32,000 nucleotides of DNA from Virgisporangium aliadipatigenens (GTDB taxonomy: Bacteria > Actinomycetota > Actinomycetes > Mycobacteriales > Micromonosporaceae), in the NCBI RefSeq assembly GCF_016863615.1, contig NZ_BOPF01000003.1, forward strand, positions 467,564-499,563. Reading direction: 5' to 3'. Both the position numbers and the translations under genes were made by a program. Shown here piece by piece: positions 678 to 16,682 of this stretch; within the stretch, counting starts at the first letter, position 1; every line of letters begins with the position of its first letter. The notes beneath the pieces are model-generated. The model worked only from the letters and a program-made list of their open reading frames with translations. It ran no database searches and was not told the DNA's origin.

Positions 678-763
678 GCCCAGAACGGTCCCACCGCCGC
701 GCGGCCCGACGCGATCCCGTTCCACCGTCCGAGGCTGTCCGGTTGCGGACCTACGATGGGGCG

Positions 764-1357
764 ATGGCGTTGTTGCACCGGGCCACGCTGAGCCCGACGA
801 AGCTCGAACTGATGACGGACTGGCTGCCCCGGCAGGACTGGTGGGCCGGTGGTCCGATCGGGCGGGTGGCCTCGTACCGGTTTGACGACCCGGATGGCGA
901 GGTGGGTGTCGAGACGACGCTGACCCGCGGCGGCGACGCCGTCTACCAGGTGCCGCAGACCTACCGGGCGGCGCCGCTGCCGGACGCCGAACGTTGGCTC
1001 GTCGGCACCTCCGAGCACTCCGTCCTGGGCAAGCGGTGGATCTACGACGCGGCCGGCGACCCGGTGTACGCGGCGGCGCTGGCCCGTGCCGTGCGCACCG
1101 GCGAGGGCCAGGCCCGCGAGTACTTCGAGGAGAACGGCGTGCGCGAGTACCGGCCGTCGTCGCTGGAGATCGCCGTCGGGGAGCCCGGGACGGCGCTTCC
1201 GTCCGATGTGGACGGTGTCACCCTCGTGGTCGACGGGCTGGAACTGCTCGTGGTGCGCCGCCTCGATCCGGCCGGCGCGTTGTCCGGTGCGGTGCTCACC
1301 GGCACCTGGACGGGGCAGGAGGAGCCGGTCGCGCTGGTCTACGGCCGCCGCCTCTGA
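764..1357 (+). CDS. conserved actinobacterial protein, maltokinase N-terminal cap-like domain
   Basis: ORF 743..1357. The N-terminus MALLHRATLSPTKLELMTDWLPRQDWW and the later TSEHSVLGKRWIYDAAGDPV match my memory of the maltokinase-cap-like family. ATG at 764 is preferred over 743 because family members start at MA..H...L.P.KLEL. Balanced residue composition. Confidence 0.65.
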   Translation: MALLHRATLSPTKLELMTDWLPRQDWWAGGPIGRVASYRFDDPDGEVGVETTLTRGGDAVYQVPQTYRAAPLPDAERWLVGTSEHSVLGKRWIYDAAGDPVYAAALARAVRTGEGQAREYFEENGVREYRPSSLEIAVGEPGTALPSDVDGVTLVVDGLELLVVRRLDPAGALSGAVLTGTWTGQEEPVALVYGRRL

Positions 1358-1459: not shown

Positions 1460-2158
1460 ATGACCGCGCCGCACACCGGTTCGCCGCCGGCCGGGGGCCT
1501 GTGGGCGCGGGCCGCCCCGCTGGCACCCGACTCGGTGCTGCGCGCCCTCGCGGCCGCGTGCGCGGACACCGAGATCGCCGGCCGGCCGGTCGTTCGGCTG
1601 CGCCTCGCCTCGGGACAGGTCGAGACCGGGCGCCTGATCCGGGTCGGCGTCGAGCGCACCGACGAGGTGGTGGTGCTCGGCCTTCCCGCCGAACGCCATC
1701 GGCCGCCGGACGAGGCGCTGTACGTGCGCGTGCGTTCGGTCGTGGCGGTCGGGGTGCTCGAGGCGGAGCAGCACCGCGACGTGCTGAGCGGCGGCACGCT
1801 CGCCGCACCCGTCACCGGCGAACCCGTCACCCGCCTCGCGCTGCGCCGGCGATACGCGCCGACCGCCGAACTCCCGCTGCGGCCGGACTGGGACACGTGT
1901 CCGGACACCCCGGAGGCGCTCGCCAACCTCGCGGCCGTGTTGGAGGCCGTCCGCACGGCCGCCGACGCGGTACGAGCCGACGCGCTCGGCCGGCAGGCGT
2001 GGGCGGCGGTCGGGGCCGTTCGGCTGGCGCACCGGCCCGGGGAACCCCTCACCGTCCGGCGCGGGCCGGACGGGCTCACGCTCGCCGTGGACCTGATCGC
2101 GGCGCTGCCCCGCCACCTCACGGACGAGGTCACGCGGGGAATCGAATCCGTGCTCTGA
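1460..2158 (+). CDS. hypothetical protein
   Basis: 232-aa ORF with balanced composition (not an Arg/Pro shadow) and high GC3. It is followed 11 nt later by the next gene. No family recognised. Confidence 0.65.
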   Translation: MTAPHTGSPPAGGLWARAAPLAPDSVLRALAAACADTEIAGRPVVRLRLASGQVETGRLIRVGVERTDEVVVLGLPAERHRPPDEALYVRVRSVVAVGVLEAEQHRDVLSGGTLAAPVTGEPVTRLALRRRYAPTAELPLRPDWDTCPDTPEALANLAAVLEAVRTAADAVRADALGRQAWAAVGAVRLAHRPGEPLTVRRGPDGLTLAVDLIAALPRHLTDEVTRGIESVL

Positions 2159-2169
2159 AGGGATTTCGC

Positions 2170-2577
2170 ATGGGACTGGCCGAACGTCGGGCGGCGGAGA
2201 GGTTCCGCACCGAGGAGTTCCCCGGCTGGAAGAGCAAGCTCGACGAGGCGGCGCACTTCCCGGTGCCGGTCGACGTCGAGTGGTCCGAGCTGGCGAACAA
2301 CGAGTTCCACGAGCAGTACACCGACCTGTTCGCCCGGGTCTACTTCGGGCCGCTGGTGCGCGCGCTCACCGCGATCACCGTGGACGACCTGGGCATCGAG
2401 GCGCTGCGCGAGGGGCTGAGCCGGATCGTCGTGCGCAACACCTACACGTACGCGAGCGAGACCGGGTTCTCGTTCGCCGACGGCGTGCTGACGATCGACC
2501 ACCGCGGCGACGCGAACATCGACCACGAGGACGACCGGGCCAAGTGGCTGCAGCAGCTCCTGGAGAAAAACCTGTAG
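2170..2577 (+). CDS. hypothetical protein (135 aa)
   Basis: Internal ATG of track ORF 1501..2577 at 2170 (in frame). MGLAERRAAERFRTEEFPGWKSKLDEAAHF...DDRAKWLQQLLEKNL has a normal globular composition, whereas the upstream part of that ORF is Arg/Gly/Pro junk overlapping the previous gene. Likely an operon with 1460..2158. Confidence 0.7.
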   Translation: MGLAERRAAERFRTEEFPGWKSKLDEAAHFPVPVDVEWSELANNEFHEQYTDLFARVYFGPLVRALTAITVDDLGIEALREGLSRIVVRNTYTYASETGFSFADGVLTIDHRGDANIDHEDDRAKWLQQLLEKNL

Positions 2578-2712
2578 CGCCCGTTCCGCGGGACCCGGGG
2601 CGCGCATCCCGCGGTGAGTCTTTCGGGTGTTTGTAACCGGAGACATCCCGTCGATCTCCCACGCTGGCGATACTTGGCCGTCGGTTGCCCGGCGCCTCGA
2701 GGGGAAGTCGTG

Positions 2713-4368
2713 ATGCGCGTCGACGTACTGATCGTCTCGGCGTTGCCGGTGGAGTTCGAGGAGGCGCGTGCCGCCGGCTCGGCACCGCCGCCGGCGGGCT
2801 TCGGCATCGCCGACTGGGTCGAACGCGACCGCGACGGCCCCGCGCCCTACCTCCTCGGCCGGGGAGTGCGAGCGGGCGGCCGGCGGGTGACGGTGGCGCT
2901 CGCGCGTCCGGCGCGGATGGGCGGCCGGACGGTCGGCGCGCTGACCGCCGTGCTGGCCGAACGGCTGCGGCCCGCGTGCGTCGCCCTGTGCGGCGTGTGC
3001 GCCGGAAACCCGGCGATCGTCGGCCTGGGCGATGTGGTGGTCGCCGAGATCGCCTACGCGTACGACGAGGGCCGGCAGACCGCCGACGGGCTGGTCGCCG
3101 ACCATCGCCAGACGGCTCTCGACCCGGGCTGGCTACGGGCGGTTCAGGACTTCTCGCCGGCCGGACTGCCGAGCCACGGGCCGGCGGACGACCACGAGGC
3201 GACGACTTGGCTGCTGGAGCAGCTCCTGCACGGGAGACAACCCGGTGGGCATCCGGCCCGGGACAGGTTCTTCCCGGGCGGCGCGTGGGCCGGTCGGCTG
3301 GCGGCGCTGGCGGAGGAGGGCGTCGTCGCGCGGCGGGATGCGGACTGGGTGCTGACCCCGCACGGTCGCACGGTGGCGGAGCGGGCCCTGCACGACGACG
3401 CGCGGGGGCCGGGTCGCCTGCCGTTCGCCGTGGTGGCGGGCCCGATGGCCAGCGGCAGCGCGGTGGTCCGCGACGGCGCCACCTGGGAACGGATCGGCGG
3501 CATGGGCGTGCGCACGGTTGCCGGGCTGGAGATGGAGGCGGCCGCCGTCGCGACCGTGGCGCAGCAGCAGCGGATCGGGCACTGGCTGGTGGCCAAGGGC
3601 GTGAGCGACCACGCCGACCGGGCCAAGGACGACCGCTACCGGCGGTTCGCCGCCCGGGCCTCCGCCGAGGTGCTCTACGCGCTGCTGGGCCGGTTGATGC
3701 CGCAGCCGCAACGGCCGGTCCGGTGGGCCGCGGCGGCGTCGGCCGGTGTGCTGGCCGTCGGGCTGGTCGCCGGCGGGTCGGCCTTCGGCGCACACCTGTC
3801 ATCCGACGACCGGGGTGGCGCCCCGGCGCCGTTGGTCTCGCGCACGGCGTCGGACGCCGCGCGGTCCGCGCCGTCCGCCTCGTATCCGGCGGTGCCGTCC
3901 GCCTCGTCCACGGCGCGCGGCCCGGACCCGGCGCCGGGTGCGCCCACCGCGGGCCCGCCGTCCGGCAGTCGCACGGGCGGTGCCGGGCCGACGGGCGGTG
4001 CCGGGCCGACCGGTGGTGCGCCCGCCACGGGCCGGTTCCACGGCGCGATCCTCTTCGACGAGAAATGGTTCGGCTGGACGCTGGCGACCGGACAGTCGAT
4101 CGACGGCACGGTCACCGGCTGGTCCGCCGGGTTCCAGGTCTGGCTGTTCGCGCGCGCGGAGAACACCGACGAGGTGATCGCGCAGGGCCCGTGCACCGTC
4201 GACGGTGGCCGGTGGACCTGCGCGAATCTCCAACTGGACGGCCCGGCGGGCACCCGGGAGCACCTCGACGTCGTCGTCGCCTCCGACGCCGAGGCCGCGA
4301 ACTACGCGGGCCGCTCGACGGTGCCGCGCACCGCCGCCGGCGACGCCACCCAGATCTACAAGGGCTGA
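2713..4368 (+). CDS. membrane-anchored PNP_UDP (nucleoside phosphorylase / MTA-SAH nucleosidase superfamily) protein with an inserted helical segment, one TM helix, a low-complexity linker and a C-terminal extracytoplasmic domain
   Basis: ATG at 2713 with ggggaag 6-12 nt upstream. Nucleosidase-fold motifs: MRVDVLIVSALPVEFEEA (first strand), CGVCAGNP (glycine-rich phosphate/ribose loop), VAGLEMEAAAVATVA and VAKGVSDHAD (the xEMEaaA and ISDxAD signatures). About 110 aa are inserted around nt 3100-3420. A hydrophobic helix WAAAASAGVLAVGLVAGGSAFGA lies around nt 3724-3792. A P/G/S/T/A linker contains the TGGAGP repeats. The last 110 aa or so carry two Cys. Confidence 0.75.
   Translation: MRVDVLIVSALPVEFEEARAAGSAPPPAGFGIADWVERDRDGPAPYLLGRGVRAGGRRVTVALARPARMGGRTVGALTAVLAERLRPACVALCGVCAGNPAIVGLGDVVVAEIAYAYDEGRQTADGLVADHRQTALDPGWLRAVQDFSPAGLPSHGPADDHEATTWLLEQLLHGRQPGGHPARDRFFPGGAWAGRLAALAEEGVVARRDADWVLTPHGRTVAERALHDDARGPGRLPFAVVAGPMASGSAVVRDGATWERIGGMGVRTVAGLEMEAAAVATVAQQQRIGHWLVAKGVSDHADRAKDDRYRRFAARASAEVLYALLGRLMPQPQRPVRWAAAASAGVLAVGLVAGGSAFGAHLSSDDRGGAPAPLVSRTASDAARSAPSASYPAVPSASSTARGPDPAPGAPTAGPPSGSRTGGAGPTGGAGPTGGAPATGRFHGAILFDEKWFGWTLATGQSIDGTVTGWSAGFQVWLFARAENTDEVIAQGPCTVDGGRWTCANLQLDGPAGTREHLDVVVASDAEAANYAGRSTVPRTAAGDATQIYKG
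3973..4022 (+). repeat. in-frame tandem 18-bp repeat (about 2.6 copies) encoding (TGGAGP)n in the linker
   Basis: acgggcggtgccgggccg occurs at 3973-3990 and again at 3991-4008, followed by the diverged partial copy accggtggtgcgcc. Confidence 0.8.
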
Positions 4369-4372
4369 GCGA

Positions 4373-5977
4373 TCACACCCGGAAGGTTTCGACCGCCTTA
4401 CGGAGTTCCCGCGAAATGTCGGCGAGGTCGACGGCCGCGTCCCGGGTCGCTGTCGCGGCGTCGCGGGCGCTGCCGGTCGCGGCGACCACCTCGCTGATCT
4501 CCGCGGAGATCTGGGAGGTACCCATCGCGGCCCGGTTGAGGTCGCCGGACATCGTGCCCGTGGTGGCGCTCTGCTGCTCGACGGCCGAGGCGATGGTGTT
4601 CTGGTAGTCGCTGATCCGCGCGATGACCTGGCTGATGCCGGAGATGGAGTGGACGGCGGTGCGGGCGTCCTGCTGGATGGCCTCGATGCGGCGGCCGATC
4701 TCCTCGGTCGCCTTGGCGGTCTCCTGCGCCAGGTCCTTGACCTCGCCGGCCACGACAGCGAAGCCGCGGCCGCTCTCGCCGGCGCGGGCCGCCTCGATGG
4801 TGGCGTTGAGGGCGAGGAGGTTGGTCTGGGCGGCGATCGCGGTGATCACCTTGACGACGCTGTCGATCTCGGCGGAGGAGTTGCCGAGCTTGACCATCAG
4901 GCTCTCGGCGTCGGCGGCCACCCCGACGGCCTGGGTGGCGACCTCGGCGGCCTGGGTGGCGTTCGCGGAGATCTCGCCGATCGAGGCCCCCATCTCCTCG
5001 GCGCCGCCGGCCACGGCGTGCACGCCGGCGGTGACGCTGCCCGCGGCGGTGTCGATCGACGCCACCCGCGACGAGGTGTGCTCGACCGTGGCGGTCAGGT
5101 CGCGGCTCGCCCCGGCGAGATCCTCCGAACGGGCGGAGAGGCCGGCGCTGGTGGCGGCGAGGGTGCTGACGGTGGCGCGCATCTTCGTGGTCGCCTGGTG
5201 CAGCGCCCGGGACATCTCGCCGATCTCGGTCTGTGACGTGTCGGCGGGGCGTTCGGTCAGGTCGCCCTCGGCGACGGCGGTGAGGCGGTCGCGGAGTTCG
5301 CGCATGCGACGGGCGAGACTGTGCGCGACACCGAGGGCGAACGCCCCCGCCAGCAGCACGCCGAGCACCAGGAACACGCCGGTGTACAGCCGTGCGCCCG
5401 CCGATGCGGCCTTGACGTCCTCGGCGGCCTGCTGCGCGTGGGTGAGCGCCAGTTGCTTGGCCGCCTCCAGGTCCTTGACCGCCTGGTTGGTGGCCGGGTT
5501 CAGTTTGGTGGTGCGGAAGTCCTGCCACTCCACCAGCCGTCCCGACTCCTTGATGCCGGCGGACTCCTTGCTCAGCGCGAGGTAGTTCTTCCAGGAGGCC
5601 TCGAAGGTGCGCATCGCGTCGCGCTCCGGGCCGGTCACGGCGAGGCTGTTGTACGCGGCGATCTTCTCCGTCACCTCGGCCCGCAGGGCGGTGGTCTCCT
5701 TGGCGTAGTCCGCCGCCTTCGCCGGGTCGGCGGCGGTCAGGTTGGACAGGCTGGACCAGCGCTGGTGCCACACGAGTTGGTGGATGTCGTCGATCGTGTG
5801 CAACGGCTTGAGCGACTGGTCGTACACCGCCTCCGTGCCGGCCGCGATGCGGTTGATCTGCACGATGCCCACGGTGCCGATCGCGGCGGCGGCCGCCAGA
5901 GCGAACCCCGCCGTCATGAGCAGAGTGGTGCGGATGCTGCGCCCGCGCAGCACGCCGGAGACAAGACCGTTCACCAT
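4373..5977 (-). CDS. methyl-accepting chemotaxis protein (four-helix-bundle sensor, HAMP, MA domain)
   Basis: Signature hairpin [31 protein letters not shown]. Two TM helices flank a periplasmic helical region of about 170 aa. The HAMP-like segment is [22 protein letters not shown]. The start may instead be GTG at 6007. Convergent with the previous gene, with 4 nt between stops. Confidence 0.9.
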
Positions 5978-6017
5978 GCGAGAACATTCGGCGGTGTCGG
6001 CCGTCACTTGATCGAGG

Positions 6018-10578: not shown

Positions 10579-13044
10579 ATGGCCGACGGGCCGCATGCCG
10601 ACCTGCCGGACCCGGGCGCCGCCGGCACGGTGGAGGAGCTGACGTCCTGCCTGCGCGCGTTGAAGGTCTACGCGGGTGACCCGTCGTTCACGGTGATCAC
10701 CGAGCGGGTCAACCGCGACCGGCGGGCCGACGGCCGGCCGGCCAACGAGGACGCCGCGCGGGGCACCGTGGTGGACTGCTTCAAGGCCGGGCGCAGGCGT
10801 CTCGACCCGGAACTCGTCGTCGCCGTCGTCCGGGCGCTGCACGGCGATCCCGGCTACGTCAACCAGTGGCGGCAGGCGCTGCGTGTCGCGGCCGGCCAGA
10901 GGGCGGCCGCTTCGCAGGTACGGGTCTTCGACGCGCTGCCACCGGAGCTGGCGGAGTTCACCGGGCGCCGGGCCGAACTCGCCGGCCTGGACACCCTGAT
11001 CGAAGACCCGGCCGACCTGATCCTGTCGATCGAAGGTATGCCCGGGGTGGGCAAGACCCAGCTCGCCGTGCGGATGGCGCACCGGATCCTGCGGCGCCGG
11101 CCGACCACCCGGGTCCTGTACGTCAACCTGCGCGGGTTCCATCCCGATCCGGTGCAGCCTTCGGCCGATCCGGCCGCCGTGCTCGACGCGTTCCTCCGGC
11201 TGCTCGGCGTCCCCGGCAACCGGGTCCCGCACGAATCCGCGGAGCGGCACGCACTCTTTCGCGACCGGCTGGCGGACAGGCCGACCCTCCTCGTCCTCGA
11301 CGACGCCGCCGACGAGGAGCAGGTGCGTCGGCTGCTCGCCGATGTTCCCGGTTGCATCACCCTGATCACCAGCCGGCGCCGCCTGGCACGTCTCACGTCG
11401 ACGACGGCGGCGGTGCACGCGTTCCCGCTCGACGTGTTCACCGTGGACGAGACCTGGGAGTACCTCGTCCGGGCCGTCCCCCGGATCACCGTCGGCGTCG
11501 ACCCGTCGGCCGTCGGCCGGCTCGCGCAGCGCTGCGGTGGCCTGCCGCTGGCGCTGCGCCTGGTGACCGGACACATGCGCGGCACACCCGGATGGACGGT
11601 GACCGACCACGCCGACCGGCTCGACGAGCGGCACGCGGCGCGGCGTATCGACTCCGGGATCGGCGTCGCTCTCGCGCAGTCCTACCAGAGCCTGCCGCCC
11701 GGTCACCGGTCGCTGTTCCGGATGCTCGCTCTCCACCCGGGGCCGGACCTCGACCGCTGTGCCGCCGTGGCGCTCGCCGATCTCGCGCCGGCCCGGGTCG
11801 ACGCGCTGCTGCATCATCTGGAACGCGAACATCTGGTGCGTCCGGCAGGAGAGGGCCGGTTCGTCATGCACGATCTGGTGCGCGCCTACGCCGCCGAACG
11901 CGGTGTCGACGAGGACAGTTCCACGCAGCGTCGGGACGCGTTGGGCCGCCTGCTCGACCACTACACGTCCGCCACGATCGCCGCGATGGACACGTTGCAT
12001 CCGGCCGACGCGGGCATGCGGCGCCGGCCGGAGACCACGGTCGCCCCGATCGTGGCGTTTCCCGACGCCGCCGCGGCGAAGGACTGGCTCGACACGGAGC
12101 TGCCGGTGCTGGTCGCCGTCTCCGACCATGCCGCGGAGCACGGCCTGCGGCGGCACGCCGTCGACCTGTCCGTCACCCTGTTCCGGTATCTCAGCGAACA
12201 TCCCGACGAGGCGCTGCGGATCCACGGCAACGCACGCGACGCCGCCCGCGCCGCCGCCGACGCCGCAGATGAGGCCGCGGCCCTGGTCGGGCTCGGTGCC
12301 GCACGCTGCATCCGCGGCGATCACCGGGCCGGGGCCGGTGAACTGCGCGCGGCGCTCGGCCTGTTCCGTTCCGTCGGTGACCGCCTCGGCGAGGCACGCG
12401 CCCTGATGAACCTCGGCAGCGCCACCCTCTGGCAGGGCGACCACGCGATCGCGCTGGAGCACATGACCGCCGCGCGCGCCCTTTTCGAGTGCCTCGGCGC
12501 GACCCAGGGTGTCACCCACACCCTGACGAACATCGCGTACATCGAGTCGCTCCTGGGACGCCACACGTCCGCGGTGGAGCACCTCGCACAGGCGATCGTC
12601 GGGTACCGCGGCATCGACGACGTCGCGGGGGAGGCGATCGCGCTGACCAACCTCGCAAACGCCGAGAACGCGTTGGGCGAGACCGAACGCGCCGTCACCC
12701 ACTTCCTCCGCGCCGCGGGCGCCAGCCGGCGGGTCGGCGATCGCACCAACGAGGCCGACGCGCTGGAGGGACTCGCGGGCACCTACCTCCGACTCGGCGA
12801 TCCCGCGCGCGCCGTCCCGCCCCTACGTCGCGCGCTCGACCTGTGCCGCCGGGTCGGCTACCGGCGCGGCGAGGCCAACTCCCTCACCCTGCTCGGCGAC
12901 GTGGCGCAGCACACCGGCGACCGGGCCGCCGCCATGGGGTACTACCTCGAATCGCTGGCTGTCGCGGGGATCGACCCCGCCCAACGGGACCGTGCCGAGG
13001 CCGGGCTCCGGCGGATCCTCGGCGGCTTCCCGCAAGCCGCCTAG
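10579..13044 (+). CDS. STAND NTPase: N-terminal HTH-like domain, NB-ARC ATPase, C-terminal TPR array
   Basis: Walker A GMPGVGKTQ, Walker B LLVLDDAAD, ITSRRR, CGGLPLAL (GLPL motif), then repeated TPR-like units (GEARALMNLGS, GEAIALTNLAN, NEADALEGLAG, GEANSLTLLGD). The N-terminal 100 aa resemble the XRE-like HTH heads of actinomycete NB-ARC proteins. Confidence 0.85.
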   Translation: MADGPHADLPDPGAAGTVEELTSCLRALKVYAGDPSFTVITERVNRDRRADGRPANEDAARGTVVDCFKAGRRRLDPELVVAVVRALHGDPGYVNQWRQALRVAAGQRAAASQVRVFDALPPELAEFTGRRAELAGLDTLIEDPADLILSIEGMPGVGKTQLAVRMAHRILRRRPTTRVLYVNLRGFHPDPVQPSADPAAVLDAFLRLLGVPGNRVPHESAERHALFRDRLADRPTLLVLDDAADEEQVRRLLADVPGCITLITSRRRLARLTSTTAAVHAFPLDVFTVDETWEYLVRAVPRITVGVDPSAVGRLAQRCGGLPLALRLVTGHMRGTPGWTVTDHADRLDERHAARRIDSGIGVALAQSYQSLPPGHRSLFRMLALHPGPDLDRCAAVALADLAPARVDALLHHLEREHLVRPAGEGRFVMHDLVRAYAAERGVDEDSSTQRRDALGRLLDHYTSATIAAMDTLHPADAGMRRRPETTVAPIVAFPDAAAAKDWLDTELPVLVAVSDHAAEHGLRRHAVDLSVTLFRYLSEHPDEALRIHGNARDAARAAADAADEAAALVGLGAARCIRGDHRAGAGELRAALGLFRSVGDRLGEARALMNLGSATLWQGDHAIALEHMTAARALFECLGATQGVTHTLTNIAYIESLLGRHTSAVEHLAQAIVGYRGIDDVAGEAIALTNLANAENALGETERAVTHFLRAAGASRRVGDRTNEADALEGLAGTYLRLGDPARAVPPLRRALDLCRRVGYRRGEANSLTLLGDVAQHTGDRAAAMGYYLESLAVAGIDPAQRDRAEAGLRRILGGFPQAA

Positions 13045-13116: not shown

Positions 13117-15831
13117 ATGCTGGAGTGTCGGGTCCTCGGCCCGGTGGAGGTGCGCGTCGACGGGCGGCCCGTCGACGTCGGACACGCGCGCCAGTGCTGT
13201 GTGCTCGTGGCGCTGCTCGCCGACGCCGGCCGGTGCGTGCCGCCCGAACGGCTGGCGCACCGCGTGTGGGGCGACGAACCGCCGCCACGGGCCCGCAATC
13301 TGCTCTCCGGCTACGTGTCGCGGCTGCGCAAGACCACCGGGATCGACGTGGCGCGCGAGGGCACCGGCTACGTCGTGCGGGTCGACGAGTTCGACCTGAG
13401 CCGCTTCGACACGCTCCTGGCGCGGGCCCGGGCGGAGGCCGATCTCGCCCGGTACGACGAGGCGCTGGCGCTGTGGCGCGGCGAGCCGTTCGCCGGTCTG
13501 GACACCCCGTGGATCCGGGCGTGGCGCGAGGCCCTGACGGCGCGGCGGTTCGCGGCCGAACTGGACCGCACCGACCTGGTCCTCGCCGAGGGCGGCCACG
13601 CCGAGGTGGTCGACCGGCTCGCGGCGCGGATCACCGCACACCCGCTGGACGAACGCCTCACCGGCCAGTACATGCTCGCGCTGTACCGCTGCGGCCGGCA
13701 GGCCGACGCGCTGCGCGCCTACGAACGGCTGCGCCACGACCTCGCCGAGGAACTGGGCGCCGACCCCGGCCCGGCGCTGCGCCGCCTGCACCGCGGGATG
13801 CTGCGGGCCGATCCCGGCGTCGACCCGCACACGCTGCCGGTGCCCCGCCAACTGCCGGCCGCCCCGCGCGGCTTCGCCGGCCGCACCCGCGAACTCGCCG
13901 CCCTCGACGCGATAGCGGCCGCCGGTGCCGCCGGGGACGCCGTGGAGACCTCCGGCGGGGTCGTGTGCGTGGTCTCCGGTTCGGCCGGCGTGGGCAAGAC
14001 GACGCTGGCGGTGCGCTGGGCCCACCGGGTCGCGGACCGGTTCGTCGACGGGCAGCTGCACGTGGACCTGCGGGGGTTCGACACCCGGGAGGCCGTCGCG
14101 CCCGACGAGGCGGTGCGCGGGTTTCTGGAGGCGCTCGGTGTCGCCGCCGAACGCATGCCGACCGGCCCGGACGCGCGCGTCGGCCTGTACCGGACCCTGC
14201 TGCACGGCCGGCGGATGCTGCTGCTGTTGGACAACGCCCGCGACGCCGCCCAGGTGCGGCCGCTGCTGCCCGCGGCACCCGGCTGTCTGGTGCTGGTGAC
14301 GAGCCGGCGACGGCTGGCCGACCTGGTGCGCGCCGACGGGGCGTTCCCGCTGACGCTGGAGCTGCTCAGCGGCGCCGAGTCGGAGGACCTGCTGGCCCGC
14401 CGGATCGGTGCGGCCCGCGTGGCCGCCGAACGCGACGCCGTCGACCGGATCGTCGAGCGCTGCGCGCGCCTGCCGTTGGCCCTGGCGGTGGTGGCCGCCC
14501 GCGCAGCGGCGCACCCGGGCTTCACATTGGCGGCGCTGGCGGCTGAACTCGTTCCCCGGGAAGGGCTCTACGACGTGCGGGACGTCCTCGCGTCCTCCTA
14601 CCGCGCGCTCGACGAACGCTCGGCCCGGCTCTTCCGGCTCTTCGGCGCGCACCCGGGCCCGGACCTGTCGACGCACGCCGCCGCGAGCCTGGCCGGACTG
14701 TCCACAGTGGAGATCCGGCGACTGCTGGCGACGCTCAGCGACGCGCACCTGCTGACCGAATACCTACCCGGTCGCTACACCGCCCACGACCTCCTGCGCG
14801 ACTACGCCCGCGAGTTGTTGCTGTCCACTGTGGACAGCGAACCGGCGCGCCGGGACGCGACCGCCCGCGTGCTGGATCACTACCTGCACAGCGCCTGCGC
14901 CGCCGCGCTGGCCCTGCACCCGCACCGCGACCCGATCCCGTTGCCGCGCAAGGGATCCGGCGTGACGGCCGAGGCGCCCGGCTCCTACGCCGAGGCGACG
15001 CGGTGGTTCGCCGCCGAGCACCGCGTGCTGCTCGCCGTCGTCGAACACTGCGTGCGCGCCGGCGCCCACGAGCACACCTGGCGGCTCGCCTGGGCGATGT
15101 GGACGTTCCTCGACCGGACCGGCCGCTGGCAGGACCTGTGGGAGCTGGGCCGCGCGGCGGTCGACGCCGGCCGCGCGCTGCACGACCCGCACGCCGAGGC
15201 GGTCAGCCATCGCCTCCTGGCGCGCGCCACGATGAACCGCGACGACCTCGACGCCGCCATCGGGCACCTGAGCGCCGCGCTCGCCCTGTACCGGCGCACC
15301 GGCGACCTGGCCGGCGAGGCCAACACGCACAACAACCTCGCCGTCGTGCGGGAGGCACAGGGCCGCTACCGAGACGCCGGCGAGGAGAACCTGCGGGCCC
15401 TGCGCCTCTACACCGAGACCGGCAACGCGCGCGGCGGCGCCATGGCGCTGAACATGGCCGGCCGCTACGACTCGCTCTGCGGCGACCACGGGTCGGCGGT
15501 GGGACGCTGTGAGACGGCGCTGTCGATGTTCACGGCGCTCGGCGACCGGATCGGCGAGGCCATCGCCCGCGCCACGCTCGGGCATGTGCTGCACGGGCTC
15601 GGCAAGCACGACCGGGCCGTCGACTGCCTGCTGCCGGCCATCGCCGGCTTCGAGGCGCTGGACGACCGCCACCACGTCGCCGAGTCGCTCGTGGTGCTCG
15701 GCGACGCGCACCACGCCATGGGCGACCGGGACGCCGCCGAGCGGGCCTGGCGGCGGGCCCGCGCGATGCTGACCGAGCTGCGCCACCCGGACGCCGAACG
15801 GGTCGCGCGGCGGCTGGCCTCAGCCGGCTGA
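13117..15831 (+). CDS. AfsR/SARP-family regulator: OmpR-type winged helix + BTAD + NB-ARC + TPR
   Basis: SARP head MLECRVLGPVEVRVDGRPV...YVSRLRK. BTAD segment LALWRGEPFAGLD...YRCGRQADALRAYERLRHDLAEELGADPGPALRRLH. Walker A GSAGVGKTT, Walker B LLLLDNA, VTSRRR, ARLPLAL. TPR units follow (GEANTHNNLAV and others). Confidence 0.9.
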   Translation: MLECRVLGPVEVRVDGRPVDVGHARQCCVLVALLADAGRCVPPERLAHRVWGDEPPPRARNLLSGYVSRLRKTTGIDVAREGTGYVVRVDEFDLSRFDTLLARARAEADLARYDEALALWRGEPFAGLDTPWIRAWREALTARRFAAELDRTDLVLAEGGHAEVVDRLAARITAHPLDERLTGQYMLALYRCGRQADALRAYERLRHDLAEELGADPGPALRRLHRGMLRADPGVDPHTLPVPRQLPAAPRGFAGRTRELAALDAIAAAGAAGDAVETSGGVVCVVSGSAGVGKTTLAVRWAHRVADRFVDGQLHVDLRGFDTREAVAPDEAVRGFLEALGVAAERMPTGPDARVGLYRTLLHGRRMLLLLDNARDAAQVRPLLPAAPGCLVLVTSRRRLADLVRADGAFPLTLELLSGAESEDLLARRIGAARVAAERDAVDRIVERCARLPLALAVVAARAAAHPGFTLAALAAELVPREGLYDVRDVLASSYRALDERSARLFRLFGAHPGPDLSTHAAASLAGLSTVEIRRLLATLSDAHLLTEYLPGRYTAHDLLRDYARELLLSTVDSEPARRDATARVLDHYLHSACAAALALHPHRDPIPLPRKGSGVTAEAPGSYAEATRWFAAEHRVLLAVVEHCVRAGAHEHTWRLAWAMWTFLDRTGRWQDLWELGRAAVDAGRALHDPHAEAVSHRLLARATMNRDDLDAAIGHLSAALALYRRTGDLAGEANTHNNLAVVREAQGRYRDAGEENLRALRLYTETGNARGGAMALNMAGRYDSLCGDHGSAVGRCETALSMFTALGDRIGEAIARATLGHVLHGLGKHDRAVDCLLPAIAGFEALDDRHHVAESLVVLGDAHHAMGDRDAAERAWRRARAMLTELRHPDAERVARRLASAG

Positions 15832-16548
15832 GGGCGACCGGACGCCGACGGGCTCCTCGCGCAGCACCGCCACGTGCAGGCGGCGGGTCGGCGCGGTCGG
15901 GACGGTGCCGAGTTCGTCGGCGAGGGCGCGGCGCAGCCGCTCGTAGGCGCGCAGCGCGCCGGCCGGGTCGCCGCCGGCGAGGCAGGCGCGCATGAGCGCG
16001 CGGGTGGCCCGTTCGTCCAACGGGTCCGTCGCGAGGACCGCGTCGGCGGCCGCGCGCGCGGTCCGCGCGGCACCGGCCGCCAGCGCGGCGTCGGCCGTCC
16101 CGAGCAGGGCGTCGCGCAGCAGCGCCGCGTGCCGGTCGCGGGCGCGCGCCAGCCAGTCCACATCGGACACCCACGGCAGCAGCGGCCCGCGCCCCAGCAG
16201 TTCGGCCGCCTCCCGGGCGCCGCCGCGCTCCAGCAGCGCCACCGCCTCGTCGAGATCGGTGCCGACCGCGGTCGACAGCCGGTACCCGTGCCGGTCCCCG
16301 AGGACGGCGTCCGTGCCGATCGCCGCCCGCAGCCGGCTCACGAGAGTCGCCACGTTCGCCCGCGGATCCCGTGGAACGTCATCGGCCCACAGACTGTCCA
16401 CAATGGAGTCACCCGGCACCAGCACGCCCCGCCGCACGGCCAGCATCGCCAGCAGCACCCGCGCCTTCCGGCTCCCGAGCGCCGTCTCGACGGCCGACCC
16501 GTCCCGCCACACCTCGAACGTCCCCACCAACCGCAGCCACGTCGCCAT
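15820..16548 (-). CDS. small SARP-family transcriptional activator (winged helix + BTAD only)
   Basis: Start at MATWLRLVGTFEVWRDG (ATG 16548, inside ORF 15820..16680). BTAD motif GDPAGALRAYERLRRALADELGTVPTAPTRRLH. The 3' end overlaps the AfsR-like gene by 12 nt. Divergent from the NACHT gene. Confidence 0.85.
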   Translation of the reverse strand: MATWLRLVGTFEVWRDGSAVETALGSRKARVLLAMLAVRRGVLVPGDSIVDSLWADDVPRDPRANVATLVSRLRAAIGTDAVLGDRHGYRLSTAVGTDLDEAVALLERGGAREAAELLGRGPLLPWVSDVDWLARARDRHAALLRDALLGTADAALAAGAARTARAAADAVLATDPLDERATRALMRACLAGGDPAGALRAYERLRRALADELGTVPTAPTRRLHVAVLREEPVGVRSPSAG

Positions 16549-16568
16549 GCCGCCACGGTGCCCCGCAT

Positions 16569-16601
16569 CGATGGGACGGCTGTGGAATGCCGATGGAACG
16601 G
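16569..16601. promoter_or_regulatory. three direct repeats with 11-nt periodicity in the SARP/NACHT divergent intergenic region (candidate SARP box)
   Basis: cgATGGGACgg (16569-16579), ctGTGGAATgc (16580-16590), cgATGGAACgg (16591-16601). Repeats 1 and 3 match at 10/11. Repeat 2 matches repeat 3 at 7/11. Confidence 0.35.
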
Positions 16602-16682
16602 GCCCCGACTGTCGTTGATCGTCCCGCCGAACTGCCGCAACGGGTGGTGCGTGAGCCGGCCGCCGCTGGCGATGATGCACGC

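What the first reader, a model, noticed from the sequence alone, without database searches (positions are those of the whole stretch)
2713..4368. Nucleosidase-fold enzyme fused to a TM helix and an extracytoplasmic domain
Seen:
- The N-terminal half carries the PNP_UDP / MTA-SAH nucleosidase signatures (GVCAG loop, LEMEAAAVA, GVSDHAD).
- It has no signal peptide, so it is presumably cytoplasmic.
- It is interrupted by an insert of about 110 aa (TTWLLEQLLHGRQP...LAALAEEGVVARRDADWVLTPHGRTVAERAL) that looks winged-helix-like to me.
- It is followed by one TM helix, a P/G/S/T linker with tandem TGGAGP repeats, and a two-Cys domain of about 110 aa that I predict lies outside the cell.

Established: housekeeping nucleosidases are small soluble enzymes. 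Nucleosidase/PNP domains are also used as nucleotide-degrading effectors in defence systems and as N-terminal domains of NLR-type proteins.

Inference: this could be a one-component transmembrane device coupling an extracellular cue to intracellular nucleoside or nucleotide cleavage.
Basis: partly seen in the sequence, partly recalled or inferred. Interest (0 to 1): 0.65.

Follow-up and report, generated by a model that had tools for sequence, protein, structure and literature searches.

The report
Membrane-tethered immune-type nucleosidase with outside domain
This gene encodes a rare single-pass membrane protein that joins a cytoplasmic nucleotide-cleaving enzyme, of the kind bacteria use as a self-poisoning anti-phage effector, to a small antibody-like domain outside the cell, so it may be a receptor-like immune or conflict switch, although no signalling has been shown.

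Summary
The CDS at 2713-4368 (+) encodes 551 aa.

- **Enzyme module:** a PNP/MTAN-fold nucleosidase with its catalytic residues intact (E14, M274/E275, K295, D299).
- **Insert:** an insertion of about 90 aa splits the enzyme fold and folds as a winged helix.
- **Membrane and outside parts:** a TM helix, a variable A/G/P/S stalk with an 18-nt TGGAGP repeat, and a 111-aa Ig-like β-sandwich with two invariant cysteines.

The enzyme-plus-winged-helix module is not a housekeeping enzyme. It is 50-58% identical to a family, mostly from Micromonosporaceae and Streptomyces, whose C-termini carry Death-like, TIR, NACHT or EAD1 domains. It matches the Detocs DtcC model far better than E. coli MtnN does.

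The TM-plus-ectodomain version is rare: about five sequences, all metagenomic. It has no conserved neighbours. The same ectodomain follows an Avs1b-like protease plus TM in another protein. Other family members carry a TM helix plus unrelated C-terminal domains.

Best reading: a solo, receptor-like conflict or abortive-infection effector. It is a new variant of a known kind. The outside-in signalling step is inference only.

The parts
2713..4368 (+). Complete CDS, 551 aa plus stop: PNP-fold nucleosidase with winged-helix insert, TM helix, stalk and Ig-like ectodomain
   Evidence: ORF list. Homology to orthologs L001 and L002 is confined to 2707-4370. GC3 is 0.90. An RBS-like GAGGGGA lies upstream.
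2713..3147 (+). PNP/MTAN fold, N-terminal half (aa 1-145). Catalytic E14 is at 2752-2754 and the GVCAG loop at 2992-3006.
   Evidence: Pfam PNP_UDP_1. Alignment to MTAN structures. E14, G94, V95, C96 and G98 are invariant in 121 homologs. dN/dS is 0.15-0.20.
3148..3420 (+). Winged-helix domain inserted in the nucleosidase fold (aa 146-236). It carries the conserved HPARxR(Y/F)FP motif and is net acidic (10 K/R against 13 D/E).
   Evidence: AF2 pLDDT 83, H-H-H-hairpin-H. Foldseek hits are all winged-helix proteins. Weak profile hits go to S19e, IdeR and OxyR. The insert is present in all family members. The DtcC-type profile has only about 37 positions where the query has about 100 residues. 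Charge count. dN/dS is 0.37-0.60.
3421..3702 (+). PNP/MTAN fold, C-terminal half (aa 237-330). M274/E275 are at 3532-3537, K295 at 3595-3597 and S298/D299 at 3604-3609. The family-specific KDDRY motif lies here.
   Evidence: Alignments to MTAN. Invariant or near-invariant columns. PADLOC PDC-M60C stretch 238-328. dN/dS is 0.27-0.28.
3712..3792 (+). Transmembrane helix (about aa 334-360, WAAAASAGVLAVGLVAGGSAFGA), predicted N-in/C-out
   Evidence: KD 1.71 in the query, and 2.52 and 2.73 in the orthologs. It lies after the end of the enzyme module, where 38 of 121 homologs carry fewer than 50 further residues. Arg/Lys cluster on the N-side and Asp on the C-side in all three orthologs. Only its composition is conserved, with dN/dS 0.74-0.96.
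3793..4032 (+). Low-complexity A/G/P/S/T stalk (aa 361-440). Its length varies between orthologs.
   Evidence: Composition A17 G15 P14 S12 T7 of 80 residues. No nucleotide homology between orthologs over 3812-4028. Ortholog lengths differ.
3973..4019 (+). 18-nt tandem repeat, 2.6 copies, encoding TGGAGP-TGGAGP-TGGAP within the stalk
   Evidence: Tandem Repeats Finder: period 18, 93% matches, score 80. Sequence read directly.
4033..4365 (+). Extracytoplasmic Ig-like β-sandwich domain (aa 441-551) with an invariant Cys pair (C494 at 4192-4194, C503 at 4219-4221). No Pfam or NCBIfam model matches.
   Evidence: Profile search of 1.84 billion representatives gave 37 hits, 23 below 1e-10; in the full-length hits the domain is C-terminal and follows TM segments. 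The Cys pair is invariant in 31 sequences. AF2 pLDDT 95.4. Foldseek returns only generic Ig-like folds. No family hit. dN/dS is 0.26-0.53.

Best explanation
The gene encodes a solo, receptor-like conflict or abortive-infection effector of a Micromonosporaceae-like actinobacterium.

**Shown.**
- It is an N-in/C-out single-pass membrane protein.
- Its cytoplasmic part is a catalytically intact PNP/MTAN-fold N-glycosidase of the type used as an effector in NTPase-, Death-like-, EAD- and TIR-based conflict systems. It is closer to the Detocs ATP nucleosidase DtcC than a housekeeping MTAN is.
- A family-wide winged-helix domain is inserted just before the strand that forms the base-binding site.
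- A TM helix and a flexible stalk connect it to an Ig-like ectodomain with an invariant Cys pair (a predicted disulfide).

**Inferred.**
- The enzyme is kept inactive as a monomer or an unproductive oligomer.
- Engagement or perturbation of the ectodomain (by a phage, envelope damage or a neighbouring cell) clusters the protein in the membrane.
- The nucleosidase domains then assemble into the active oligomer typical of this fold.
- The active enzyme cleaves adenine nucleotides (most likely ATP/dATP, by analogy with Cap17 and DtcC), arresting growth.
- The acidic winged helix probably acts as an intramolecular regulatory or oligomerisation element rather than as a DNA binder.
For: **Fold and catalytic residues.**
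- E14=E12, M274/E275=M173/E174, K295=R193, S298/D299=S196/D197 and F312=F207 of E. coli MTAN.
- These positions are invariant or nearly so in 121 homologs.

**Not a housekeeping enzyme.**
- MTAN equivalog models score 43.6 against a cut-off of 169, and 26.6 against 73.8.

**Effector-type family.**
- The N-module is 50-58% identical to proteins fused to PF20690 Death-like (31), TIR (17), Ltp (4) and trypsin+NACHT domains.
- A 31%-identical PNP-EAD1 protein with the same insert lies next to a GASH gene on a Paraburkholderia plasmid.
- Relatives lie next to a CBASS operon and next to HerA/mad8-like NTPases.

**Closeness to DtcC.**
- PADLOC PDC-M60C scores 110.7 bits for the query against 42.5 for E. 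coli MtnN.
- PDC-M60 is Detocs: the same protein sets carry both names in PMC11811056 supplement file 6.
- DtcC and Cap17 are ATP nucleosidases (bioRxiv 10.1101/2023.01.24.525353).

**Topology.**
- The TM helix is strong in the orthologs and follows the positive-inside rule.
- The Cys pair is invariant.
- The same domain sits at the C-terminus of proteins with one or more predicted TM segments, several of them polytopic.

**Modularity.**
- The same ectodomain follows an Avs1b/LmuA-like trypsin domain plus TM in P0141.
- The same enzyme module precedes a TM helix plus unrelated C-terminal domains in P0077 and P0044.

**Selection and gene context.**
- All folded modules are under purifying selection.
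- The gene is a self-contained unit in three unrelated contexts.
Against: - No experiment or computation here shows activity, substrate, toxicity, oligomerisation or transmembrane signalling.
- The CBASS 'PN-superfamily' effector model does not discriminate: MtnN scores 54.6 bits against 65.8 for the query.
- No phylogeny with bona fide Cap17-clade sequences was possible.
- S76 of MTAN is V95 here, and the substrate pocket was not modelled.
- The query's immediate neighbours are not defence genes. They are two unknown genes, an MCP and metabolic genes.
- No partner gene is conserved.
- The full architecture is known from only about five metagenomic sequences.
- A single flexible TM helix plus a disordered stalk is a poor conduit for conformational signalling, so only a clustering mechanism is plausible.
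Confidence: 0.45

Rival explanations
1. Anchor-only model. The TM helix and Ig-like ectodomain only localise the effector at the membrane or cell wall, for example at sites of phage DNA entry or at hyphal or sporangial surfaces. Activation comes from the cytoplasmic side, through the winged-helix insert sensing a ligand, nucleic acid or protein.
For: - The winged helix is conserved in every family member whatever the C-terminal domain is, so it could be the common regulatory element.
- 38 of 121 homologs have no C-terminal domain at all.
- Foldseek gave only generic Ig-like matches for the ectodomain, and no ligand-binding site was looked for.
- Most carriers of the ectodomain are small polytopic membrane proteins with no effector.
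Against: - The ectodomain is under purifying selection and keeps an invariant Cys pair. That is more than a simple anchor would need, since a TM helix alone would anchor the protein.
- The enzyme module is combined with at least three unrelated TM-anchored C-terminal domains, and the ectodomain with at least two unrelated cytoplasmic domains. This is the shuffling pattern typical of sensor-effector pairs.
- The winged helix is net acidic, which argues against nucleic-acid sensing.
Confidence: 0.25
2. Physiological signalling enzyme. The nucleosidase releases a base or a ribosyl product as a second messenger, or tunes nucleotide pools in response to an environmental cue. It would be part of normal development or behaviour, such as spore germination or motility, rather than of conflict.
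For: - Kaur et al. proposed that conflict-system PNPases may generate a messenger by releasing a base (PMC7159879).
- In two of three contexts the immediate neighbour is a methyl-accepting chemotaxis protein: window 4373-6007 and L001 8196-9890.
- The window is rich in sensory and regulatory genes.
Against: - The two MCPs have different sensor domains (4HB against CHASE4). They also differ in position and orientation relative to the gene.
- The third context has a WD40 protein instead.
- A fourth, fragmentary context has a SNIPE/T5orf172 protein.
- The fusion partners of the family (TIR, Death-like, NACHT, EAD1, trypsin) are those of cell-suicide systems.
Confidence: 0.15
3. Ordinary salvage or cofactor-pathway nucleosidase (MTA/SAH nucleosidase, futalosine hydrolase or AMP nucleosidase) that happens to be membrane-anchored.
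For: - The closest solved structures by sequence are MTA/SAH nucleosidases, with AMP nucleosidase more distant.
- The MTAN catalytic residues are kept.
Against: - Scores lie far below every curated equivalog cut-off: MTAN 43.6 against 169, MTAN 26.6 against 73.8, futalosine hydrolase 14.8 against 124.7.
- The protein has a 90-aa inserted domain, a TM helix and an ectodomain.
- Homologs are fused to TIR, Death-like and NACHT domains.
- The distribution is patchy and non-syntenic, and includes plasmids.
- No ortholog was found in 185,579 species-representative genomes.
Confidence: 0.03

Closest known systems
DtcC of Detocs and Cap17 of CBASS (immune ATP nucleosidases; Rousset et al. 2023, bioRxiv 10.1101/2023.01.24.525353)
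   Same: - Both have a PNP_UDP_1-fold effector domain carrying the catalytic Asp (Cap17 D472, DtcC D353; here D299).
- The query scores 110.7 bits on the PADLOC model of the Detocs PNP protein, against 42.5 for E. coli MtnN.
- Both fuse an effector to a sensor or receiver module.
   Different: - The sensor here is neither a SAVED nor a receiver domain. It is a TM helix plus an extracytoplasmic Ig-like domain.
- A 90-aa winged helix is inserted in the fold. The DtcC-type profile has only about 37 positions there.
- There is no operon partner.
- Substrate was not tested, and clade membership was not tested by phylogeny.
PNPase effectors fused to bacterial Death-like domains, EADs or TIR in NTP-dependent conflict systems (Kaur, Burroughs, Iyer, Aravind 2020/2021; PMC7159879, PMC8195603)
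   Same: - The N-terminal 330 aa, including the winged-helix insert, are 50-58% identical to PNP-PF20690 and PNP-TIR proteins of Micromonosporaceae and Streptomyces.
- They are 31% identical to a PNP-EAD1 protein next to a GASH gene.
   Different: - The adaptor or second effector is replaced by a TM helix, a stalk and an ectodomain.
- No STAND NTPase or GTPase partner is adjacent or conserved.
- I found no mention of this architecture or of the insert in the passages retrieved by keyword searches of those papers; the papers were not read in full.
E. coli MtnN (MTA/SAH nucleosidase) and AMP nucleosidase
   Same: - Same fold and the same catalytic constellation.
   Different: - Sequence identity is 21%, far below the equivalog cut-offs.
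- S76 is replaced by V95 and R193 by K295.
- The protein has an extra winged helix, a TM helix and an ectodomain.
- The family context is conflict systems, not salvage.
Avs1b / Lamassu-type trypsin-like protease effector, as found in P0141
   Same: - P0141 has an effector domain, a TM helix, a P/S/T stalk and the same C-terminal Ig-like domain.
- This is the same membrane and ectodomain cassette with a different effector.
   Different: - The effector chemistry is a protease rather than a nucleosidase.
- P0141 is known only from a 1.8-kb soil contig.
Single-pass receptor logic of eukaryotic Toll-like receptors (ectodomain, TM, cytoplasmic TIR)
   Same: - An extracellular β-rich domain, one TM helix and a cytoplasmic immune-type enzymatic domain that, in related systems, is activated by induced proximity. 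This is an analogy only.
   Different: - There is no homology.
- The orientation is reversed (N-in/C-out).
- The effector is a nucleosidase.
- Signalling is unproven.

Membership tests
PNP_UDP_1 / MTAN-like nucleosidase fold (Pfam PF01048) | Profile match above the curated gathering score | tested here: met
   34.8 bits against a cut-off of 25.1, in two stretches flanking the insert. The family profile hits MTAN structures at 1.7e-9.
PNP_UDP_1 / MTAN-like nucleosidase fold (Pfam PF01048) | Catalytic residues equivalent to MTAN E12, E174 and D197 (plus M173, R193, F207) | tested here: met
   E14, E275, D299, M274, K295 and F312 align. E14 and E275 are invariant and D299 is at least 90% conserved in 121 homologs. 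S76 is V95.
Housekeeping MTA/SAH nucleosidase (NCBIfam NF004079, TIGR01704) or futalosine hydrolase (TIGR03664) | Score at or above the equivalog cut-off; small soluble protein of about 230 aa | tested here: not met
   43.6 against 169, 26.6 against 73.8, and 14.8 against 124.7. The protein is 551 aa with an inserted domain, a TM helix and an ectodomain.
Immune ATP-nucleosidase clade (Cap17/DtcC; Rousset et al. 2023) | PNP domain more similar to Cap17/DtcC than to housekeeping PNPs | tested here: inconclusive
   The DtcC-type model PDC-M60C scores 110.7 bits for the query against 42.5 for MtnN. The housekeeping MTAN model gives the query 43.6 bits. However, the CBASS PN-effector model does not discriminate (65.8 against 54.6), and no tree with Cap17-clade sequences could be built.
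Immune ATP-nucleosidase clade (Cap17/DtcC; Rousset et al. 2023) | Cleaves ATP/dATP to adenine plus ribose-5'-triphosphate | not testable with these tools
   This needs biochemistry.
Immune ATP-nucleosidase clade (Cap17/DtcC; Rousset et al. 2023) | Embedded in, or next to, defence systems | tested here: inconclusive
   The query's neighbours are not defence genes and no neighbour is conserved. One ortholog fragment abuts a SNIPE/T5orf172 gene. More distant relatives lie next to CBASS, GASH and HerA/mad8-like genes.
PNPase effectors of NTP-dependent conflict systems (Kaur et al. 2020/2021) | Enzyme module homologous to PNPases fused to Death-like, EAD or TIR domains | tested here: met
   50-58% identity over aa 1-330 to 31 PF20690-, 17 TIR- and other fused proteins. 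The EAD1 relative has the same insert.
PNPase effectors of NTP-dependent conflict systems (Kaur et al. 2020/2021) | Carries an adaptor (EAD or Death-like domain) or is encoded beside the regulatory NTPase | tested here: not met
   No adaptor domain is present. The nearest NB-ARC and NACHT genes lie 6-12 kb away behind metabolic genes. They are absent from the ortholog contexts.
Single-pass transmembrane one-component sensor-effector | One TM helix, with a cytoplasmic output domain and an extracytoplasmic input domain | tested here: met
   Met by prediction only: hydropathy in three orthologs, positive-inside flanks, an invariant Cys pair and the polytopic-protein context of the ectodomain. No experimental topology exists.
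Single-pass transmembrane one-component sensor-effector | Ligand- or cue-dependent control of the output domain | not testable with these tools
   Only indirect support exists, from two-way domain shuffling.

The most novel reading that the evidence does not exclude
This could be a bacterial receptor-like immune protein that detects an event outside the cell, such as phage adsorption, wall damage or contact with a non-kin neighbour. It would do so through an exchangeable Ig-like ectodomain and, by clustering across the membrane, switch on a cytoplasmic ATP-type nucleosidase that shuts down the cell. That would be a single-polypeptide, outside-in counterpart of Toll-like receptors. The same TM-plus-ectodomain cassette is also coupled to a protease effector. 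The family-wide winged helix embedded in the enzyme would act as its built-in safety catch.
Probability: 0.25. Interest if true: 0.8.

Novelty: new variant of a known kind. Interest (0 to 1): 0.55.

Why it matters
Known nucleotide-depleting immune effectors such as Cap17, DtcC, Avs-PNP and TIR proteins are triggered by cytoplasmic sensors or second messengers. A single chain that puts such an effector directly behind an extracytoplasmic domain would suggest that some bacteria can trigger abortive infection or kin discrimination from the cell surface, before or without genome entry. It would also provide a minimal, testable model for transmembrane activation by induced proximity.

Two by-products are useful whatever the mechanism:
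- An uncharacterised Ig-like ectodomain family with an invariant Cys pair, which has no Pfam or NCBIfam model.
- The recognition that the actinobacterial and proteobacterial 'PNPase' conflict effector contains an embedded winged helix. The DtcC-type profile has no room for this domain and MTAN lacks it.

The value is limited by rarity (about five metagenomic sequences) and by the absence of any functional data.

Tried and rejected
- **Orthologs in genomes.** A search of 185,579 species-representative genomes with the full protein found none. A second scan, with the family alignment, found only family members with other C-termini, plus housekeeping MTANs.
- **Word-index searches with the C-terminal domain.** Both the single sequence and the 31-sequence profile returned only fragments.
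- **Metagenome DNA scan.** The narrow alignment gave one distant, uninformative 2.4-kb locus.
- **Upstream hypothetical genes (1460-2158 and about 2155-2577) as partners.** They have no family hits and no counterpart near the orthologs. Rejected.
- **PADLOC CBASS 'PN-superfamily' hit as evidence of Cap17 membership.** The E. coli MtnN control scores almost as well. Rejected as discriminating evidence.
- **My impression that P0146's N-terminus is cyclase-like.** Pfam, NCBIfam, PADLOC and PDB-sequence searches gave no support. Dropped.
- **Phage origin.** No tblastn hit in 50,697 phage records.
- **Context of other ectodomain carriers.** Only contigs under 2 kb were found. P0077 is not on record.
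- **Foldseek of the ectodomain against PDB and viral models.** Only generic Ig-like matches came back, with TMq at most about 0.6 and no specific relative.
- **Other feature scans.** Rfam, tRNA, promoter and terminator scans found nothing.
Full report
**1. Checking the observation**

Three lines of evidence fix the gene as 2713-4368:
- Nucleotide homology to two independent metagenomic contigs, L001 and L002 (about 80% identity), begins at 2707 and ends at 4370.
- A GAGGGGA motif lies 7-13 nt upstream of the ATG.
- GC3 is 0.90 in this frame.

Pfam PNP_UDP_1 is matched above its gathering score in two stretches. HMMER alignments to solved MTA/SAH nucleosidases pair the following motifs:
- GVCAG 94-98 with GSAGG;
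- LEMEAAAVA with VEMEATAIA;
- GVSDHAD with AISDVAD.

This gives the residue equivalences E14=E12, M274/E275=M173/E174, K295=R193, S298/D299=S196/D197 and F312=F207. S76 is replaced by V95.

A Kyte-Doolittle scan finds only two hydrophobic peaks. One is a core strand at 85-113. The other is 335-364, which is much stronger in the two full-length orthologs (2.52 and 2.73).

The stalk is A/G/P/S/T-rich. It contains an 18-nt repeat of 2.6 copies at 3973-4019, encoding TGGAGP. Cysteines occur only at positions 89, 93 and 96 in the enzyme and at 494 and 503 in the C-terminal domain.

**2. The enzyme module and its insert**

A search of 5.8 billion proteins returned 321 relatives. In the best 120, the first 330 residues, insert included, are uniform in length and 50-58% identical to the query.

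Relative to MTAN, the query has 113 residues (125-237) where MTAN has about 33.

Residues 146-240 were modelled with a 52-sequence alignment. The result has pLDDT 83 and the order helix, short helix, helix, β-hairpin, helix. The 50 best Foldseek PDB matches are essentially all winged-helix proteins: MarR family, DtxR, BigR, Sso10a and MUS81-WH. Probabilities are about 0.99 and TMq is 0.54-0.62.

Weak sequence-profile hits also go to winged helices (S19e, IdeR, OxyR), as do weak Pfam hits (HVO_A0261_N and HTH_45).

The domain is net acidic, with 10 K/R against 13 D/E. DNA binding is therefore unlikely. Its most conserved feature is an HPARxR(Y/F)FP loop.

The insert is also present in rhizobial plasmid homologs and in a Paraburkholderia PNP-EAD1 protein. 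The PADLOC PDC-M60C profile has only about 37 positions at that site.

**3. What kind of nucleosidase it is**

It is not a housekeeping enzyme. The curated MTAN, 'nucleosidase' and futalosine-hydrolase equivalog models score far below their cut-offs.

Family members carry variable C-termini:

| C-terminal part | Number among 120 hits |
|---|---|
| None (tail under 50 aa) | 38 of 121, query included |
| PF20690, which UniRef names 'Bacterial Death-like domain' | 31 |
| TIR | 17 |
| Ltp repeats | 4 |
| Kinase-like region | at least 1 |
| Trypsin upstream plus NACHT downstream | 1 |

Relatives lie in the following contexts:
- beside a GASH (GTPase-associated system) gene, in the case of the Paraburkholderia PNP-EAD1 protein;
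- beside a CBASS operon on a Mesorhizobium plasmid;
- beside an integrase and transposase genes on a Rhizobium plasmid;
- beside HerA/mad8-like double NTPases, or co-directional unknown proteins of 900-1,090 aa, in Micromonosporaceae genomes.

This is the 'PNPase' effector of the conflict systems described by Kaur et al. (PMC7159879, PMC8195603).

PADLOC gives two hits, and I ran E. coli MtnN as a control.
- The CBASS PN-effector model does not discriminate: 65.8 bits for the query against 54.6 for MtnN.
- PDC-M60C does discriminate: 110.7 against 42.5.

The supplement of PMC11811056 lists identical protein sets as 'Detocs' (DefenseFinder) and 'PDC-M60' (PADLOC). PDC-M60C is therefore presumably the DtcC-type receiver-PNP protein, a demonstrated ATP nucleosidase.

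The query's enzyme thus leans towards the immune ATP-nucleosidase clade. I could not build the tree that would settle membership, and the substrate remains inferred.

**4. TM helix, stalk and ectodomain**

The hydrophobic segment lies after the point where the enzyme module ends; 38 of the 121 family sequences have fewer than 50 residues beyond that point. It therefore cannot be a buried core helix.

In all three orthologs, Arg and Lys cluster on its N-side and Asp on its C-side. This predicts an N-in/C-out orientation.

The stalk shows no nucleotide conservation and varies in length between orthologs.

A profile of the C-terminal domain was searched against 1.84 billion representative proteins. 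It found only 37 proteins, 23 of them below 1e-10. Apart from short fragments, the domain lies at the extreme C-terminus, and in most full-length hits it follows one or more predicted TM segments and a P/S/T-rich linker. Both cysteines are invariant in 31 aligned sequences.

AF2 gives a confident β-sandwich of about seven strands, with pLDDT 95.4. Foldseek finds only generic Ig-like folds in the PDB and among viral models. No Pfam or NCBIfam model matches. It is an undescribed extracytoplasmic domain family.

**5. Modularity, the main argument for a sensor-effector reading**

The same ectodomain occurs behind three kinds of N-terminal region:
- small polytopic membrane regions;
- an Avs1b/LmuA-like trypsin domain plus one TM helix, in P0141;
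- an unidentified 190-aa domain plus one TM helix, in P0146.

Conversely, the same enzyme module occurs in front of other TM-anchored C-terminal domains:
- P0077 of Polymorphospora rubra has a TM helix (KD 2.64) and an unrelated 145-aa Cys-containing domain;
- P0044 has a weaker TM-like segment and a 190-aa domain.

**6. Gene context**

Only the CDS itself is shared between the window, L001 and L002.

| Context | Immediate neighbours |
|---|---|
| Window | Two unknown genes upstream; a convergent 4HB-type MCP downstream |
| L001 | A divergent CHASE4-type MCP |
| L002 | A divergent WD40 protein |
| P0121 contig (fragment) | A SNIPE/T5orf172 gene |

The gene is therefore a self-contained unit without a conserved partner.

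dN/dS values (NG86, rough) are as follows:

| Module | dN/dS |
|---|---|
| Enzyme | 0.15-0.28 |
| Winged helix | 0.37-0.60 |
| Ectodomain | 0.26-0.53 |
| TM helix | about 0.74-0.96 |

**7. Mechanism**

What is shown:
- the architecture;
- the intact catalytic constellation;
- effector-type ancestry;
- the predicted topology;
- the modular shuffling.

What is inferred:
- PNP/MTAN-fold enzymes are obligate oligomers (established knowledge).
- Their immune relatives sit behind oligomerising modules: SAVED, NACHT, Death-like and TIR domains.
- The likeliest switch is therefore clustering of the membrane-tethered protein after the ectodomain is engaged. This would assemble an active nucleosidase that depletes adenine nucleotides.

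Rivals are an anchor-only role for the ectodomain with cytoplasmic activation through the winged helix, a physiological messenger-generating role, and housekeeping salvage. The last is strongly disfavoured.

**8. Novelty and verdict**

The enzyme family and its use as a conflict effector are known. Keyword searches within the three key papers turned up none of the following:
- the embedded winged helix;
- the fusion to a TM helix plus an extracytoplasmic Ig-like domain;
- that ectodomain family itself;
- the sharing of the cassette with a protease effector.

The full architecture is very rare: the query, P0001, P0002 and the fragments P0121 and P0122. It is absent from species-representative genomes and from the phage collection.

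I rate it a new variant of a known kind and of moderate-to-good interest. The outside-in signalling idea is attractive but unproven.

Noticed in passing
window 4373-6007 (-); L001 8196-9890 (-): A methyl-accepting chemotaxis protein is the immediate neighbour of the gene in two of three contexts. The sensor domains differ (4HB_MCP against CHASE4), as does the orientation (convergent with a 4-bp gap, against divergent). This could be coincidence in an MCP-rich, Actinoplanes-like genome, or it could be a weak functional link.
   Followed up: partly
window 10579-13044, 13117-15831, 16371-18878 (+): Three STAND NTPase genes lie in a row: NB-ARC+TPR; a SARP type with Trans_reg_C+BTAD+NB-ARC+TPR; and a NACHT protein with an N-terminal TM segment and a long multi-TM C-terminal region. 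They lie 6-12 kb from the nucleosidase gene, behind metabolic genes, and are absent from the ortholog contexts.
   Followed up: partly
L004 5233-7917, L005 4700-7978, L006 4787-7981, L007 4718-7972 (+): In four Micromonosporaceae genomes a protein of 894-1,092 aa with no Pfam hit lies directly upstream of a family member. It is co-directional and abuts or overlaps that gene. It is a candidate unknown partner of the PNP effectors. One of the four (L007) was also scanned with PADLOC and gave only a marginal hit.
   Followed up: partly
L011 9214-12378, L012 9216-12377, L016 9214-12981 (-): Proteins of about 1,050-1,255 aa lie convergent to family members in three Actinoplanes genomes. They have two P-loop regions (HerA/DUF87, AAA_22, weak nSTAND). 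The one scanned with PADLOC (L011) matches mad8 at 2.8e-23.
   Followed up: partly
L026 6548-7990 (Mesorhizobium ciceri plasmid pMc1192): A family member has the enzyme plus winged helix at its C-terminus and an extra N-terminal region of about 150 aa. It lies just downstream of a CBASS-like operon (patatin, DncV-like CD-NTase, ThiF-family E1). It could be a second CBASS effector.
   Followed up: no
L029 5791-7116 and 7138-8391 (Paraburkholderia sabiae plasmid): A PNP-EAD1 protein with the same winged-helix insertion lies next to a gene annotated 'GTPase-associated system all-helical protein GASH'. The insert is therefore not restricted to actinobacteria.
   Followed up: partly
P0020, P0067, P0084, P0107 (family members with Ltp repeats): Ltp repeats are normally part of surface-exposed lipoproteins. 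Here they are joined to the cytoplasmic enzyme module by a P/T/E-rich linker with no detectable TM helix (best KD at most 0.93). These Ltp domains would therefore be cytoplasmic, which is unexplained.
   Followed up: no
contig of P0121 (JGI sample 3300050046; no DNA available): The ectodomain is called as a separate 111-aa ORF after a 165-aa ORF that is cut by the contig end. This is probably a frameshift or a miscalled start. It is overlapped by a convergent 734-aa SNIPE/T5orf172/MUG113 gene.
   Followed up: no
window 1460-2158 and 2155-2577 (+): Two co-directional genes lie upstream of the nucleosidase gene, of 232 aa and about 140 aa. They have no Pfam, NCBIfam or PADLOC match and no counterpart near the orthologs.
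   Followed up: partly
window 743-1357 (+): A CG0192-related protein with a maltokinase N-terminal cap domain (NCBIfam NF047744, 4.9e-52). It is unrelated to the finding.
   Followed up: no
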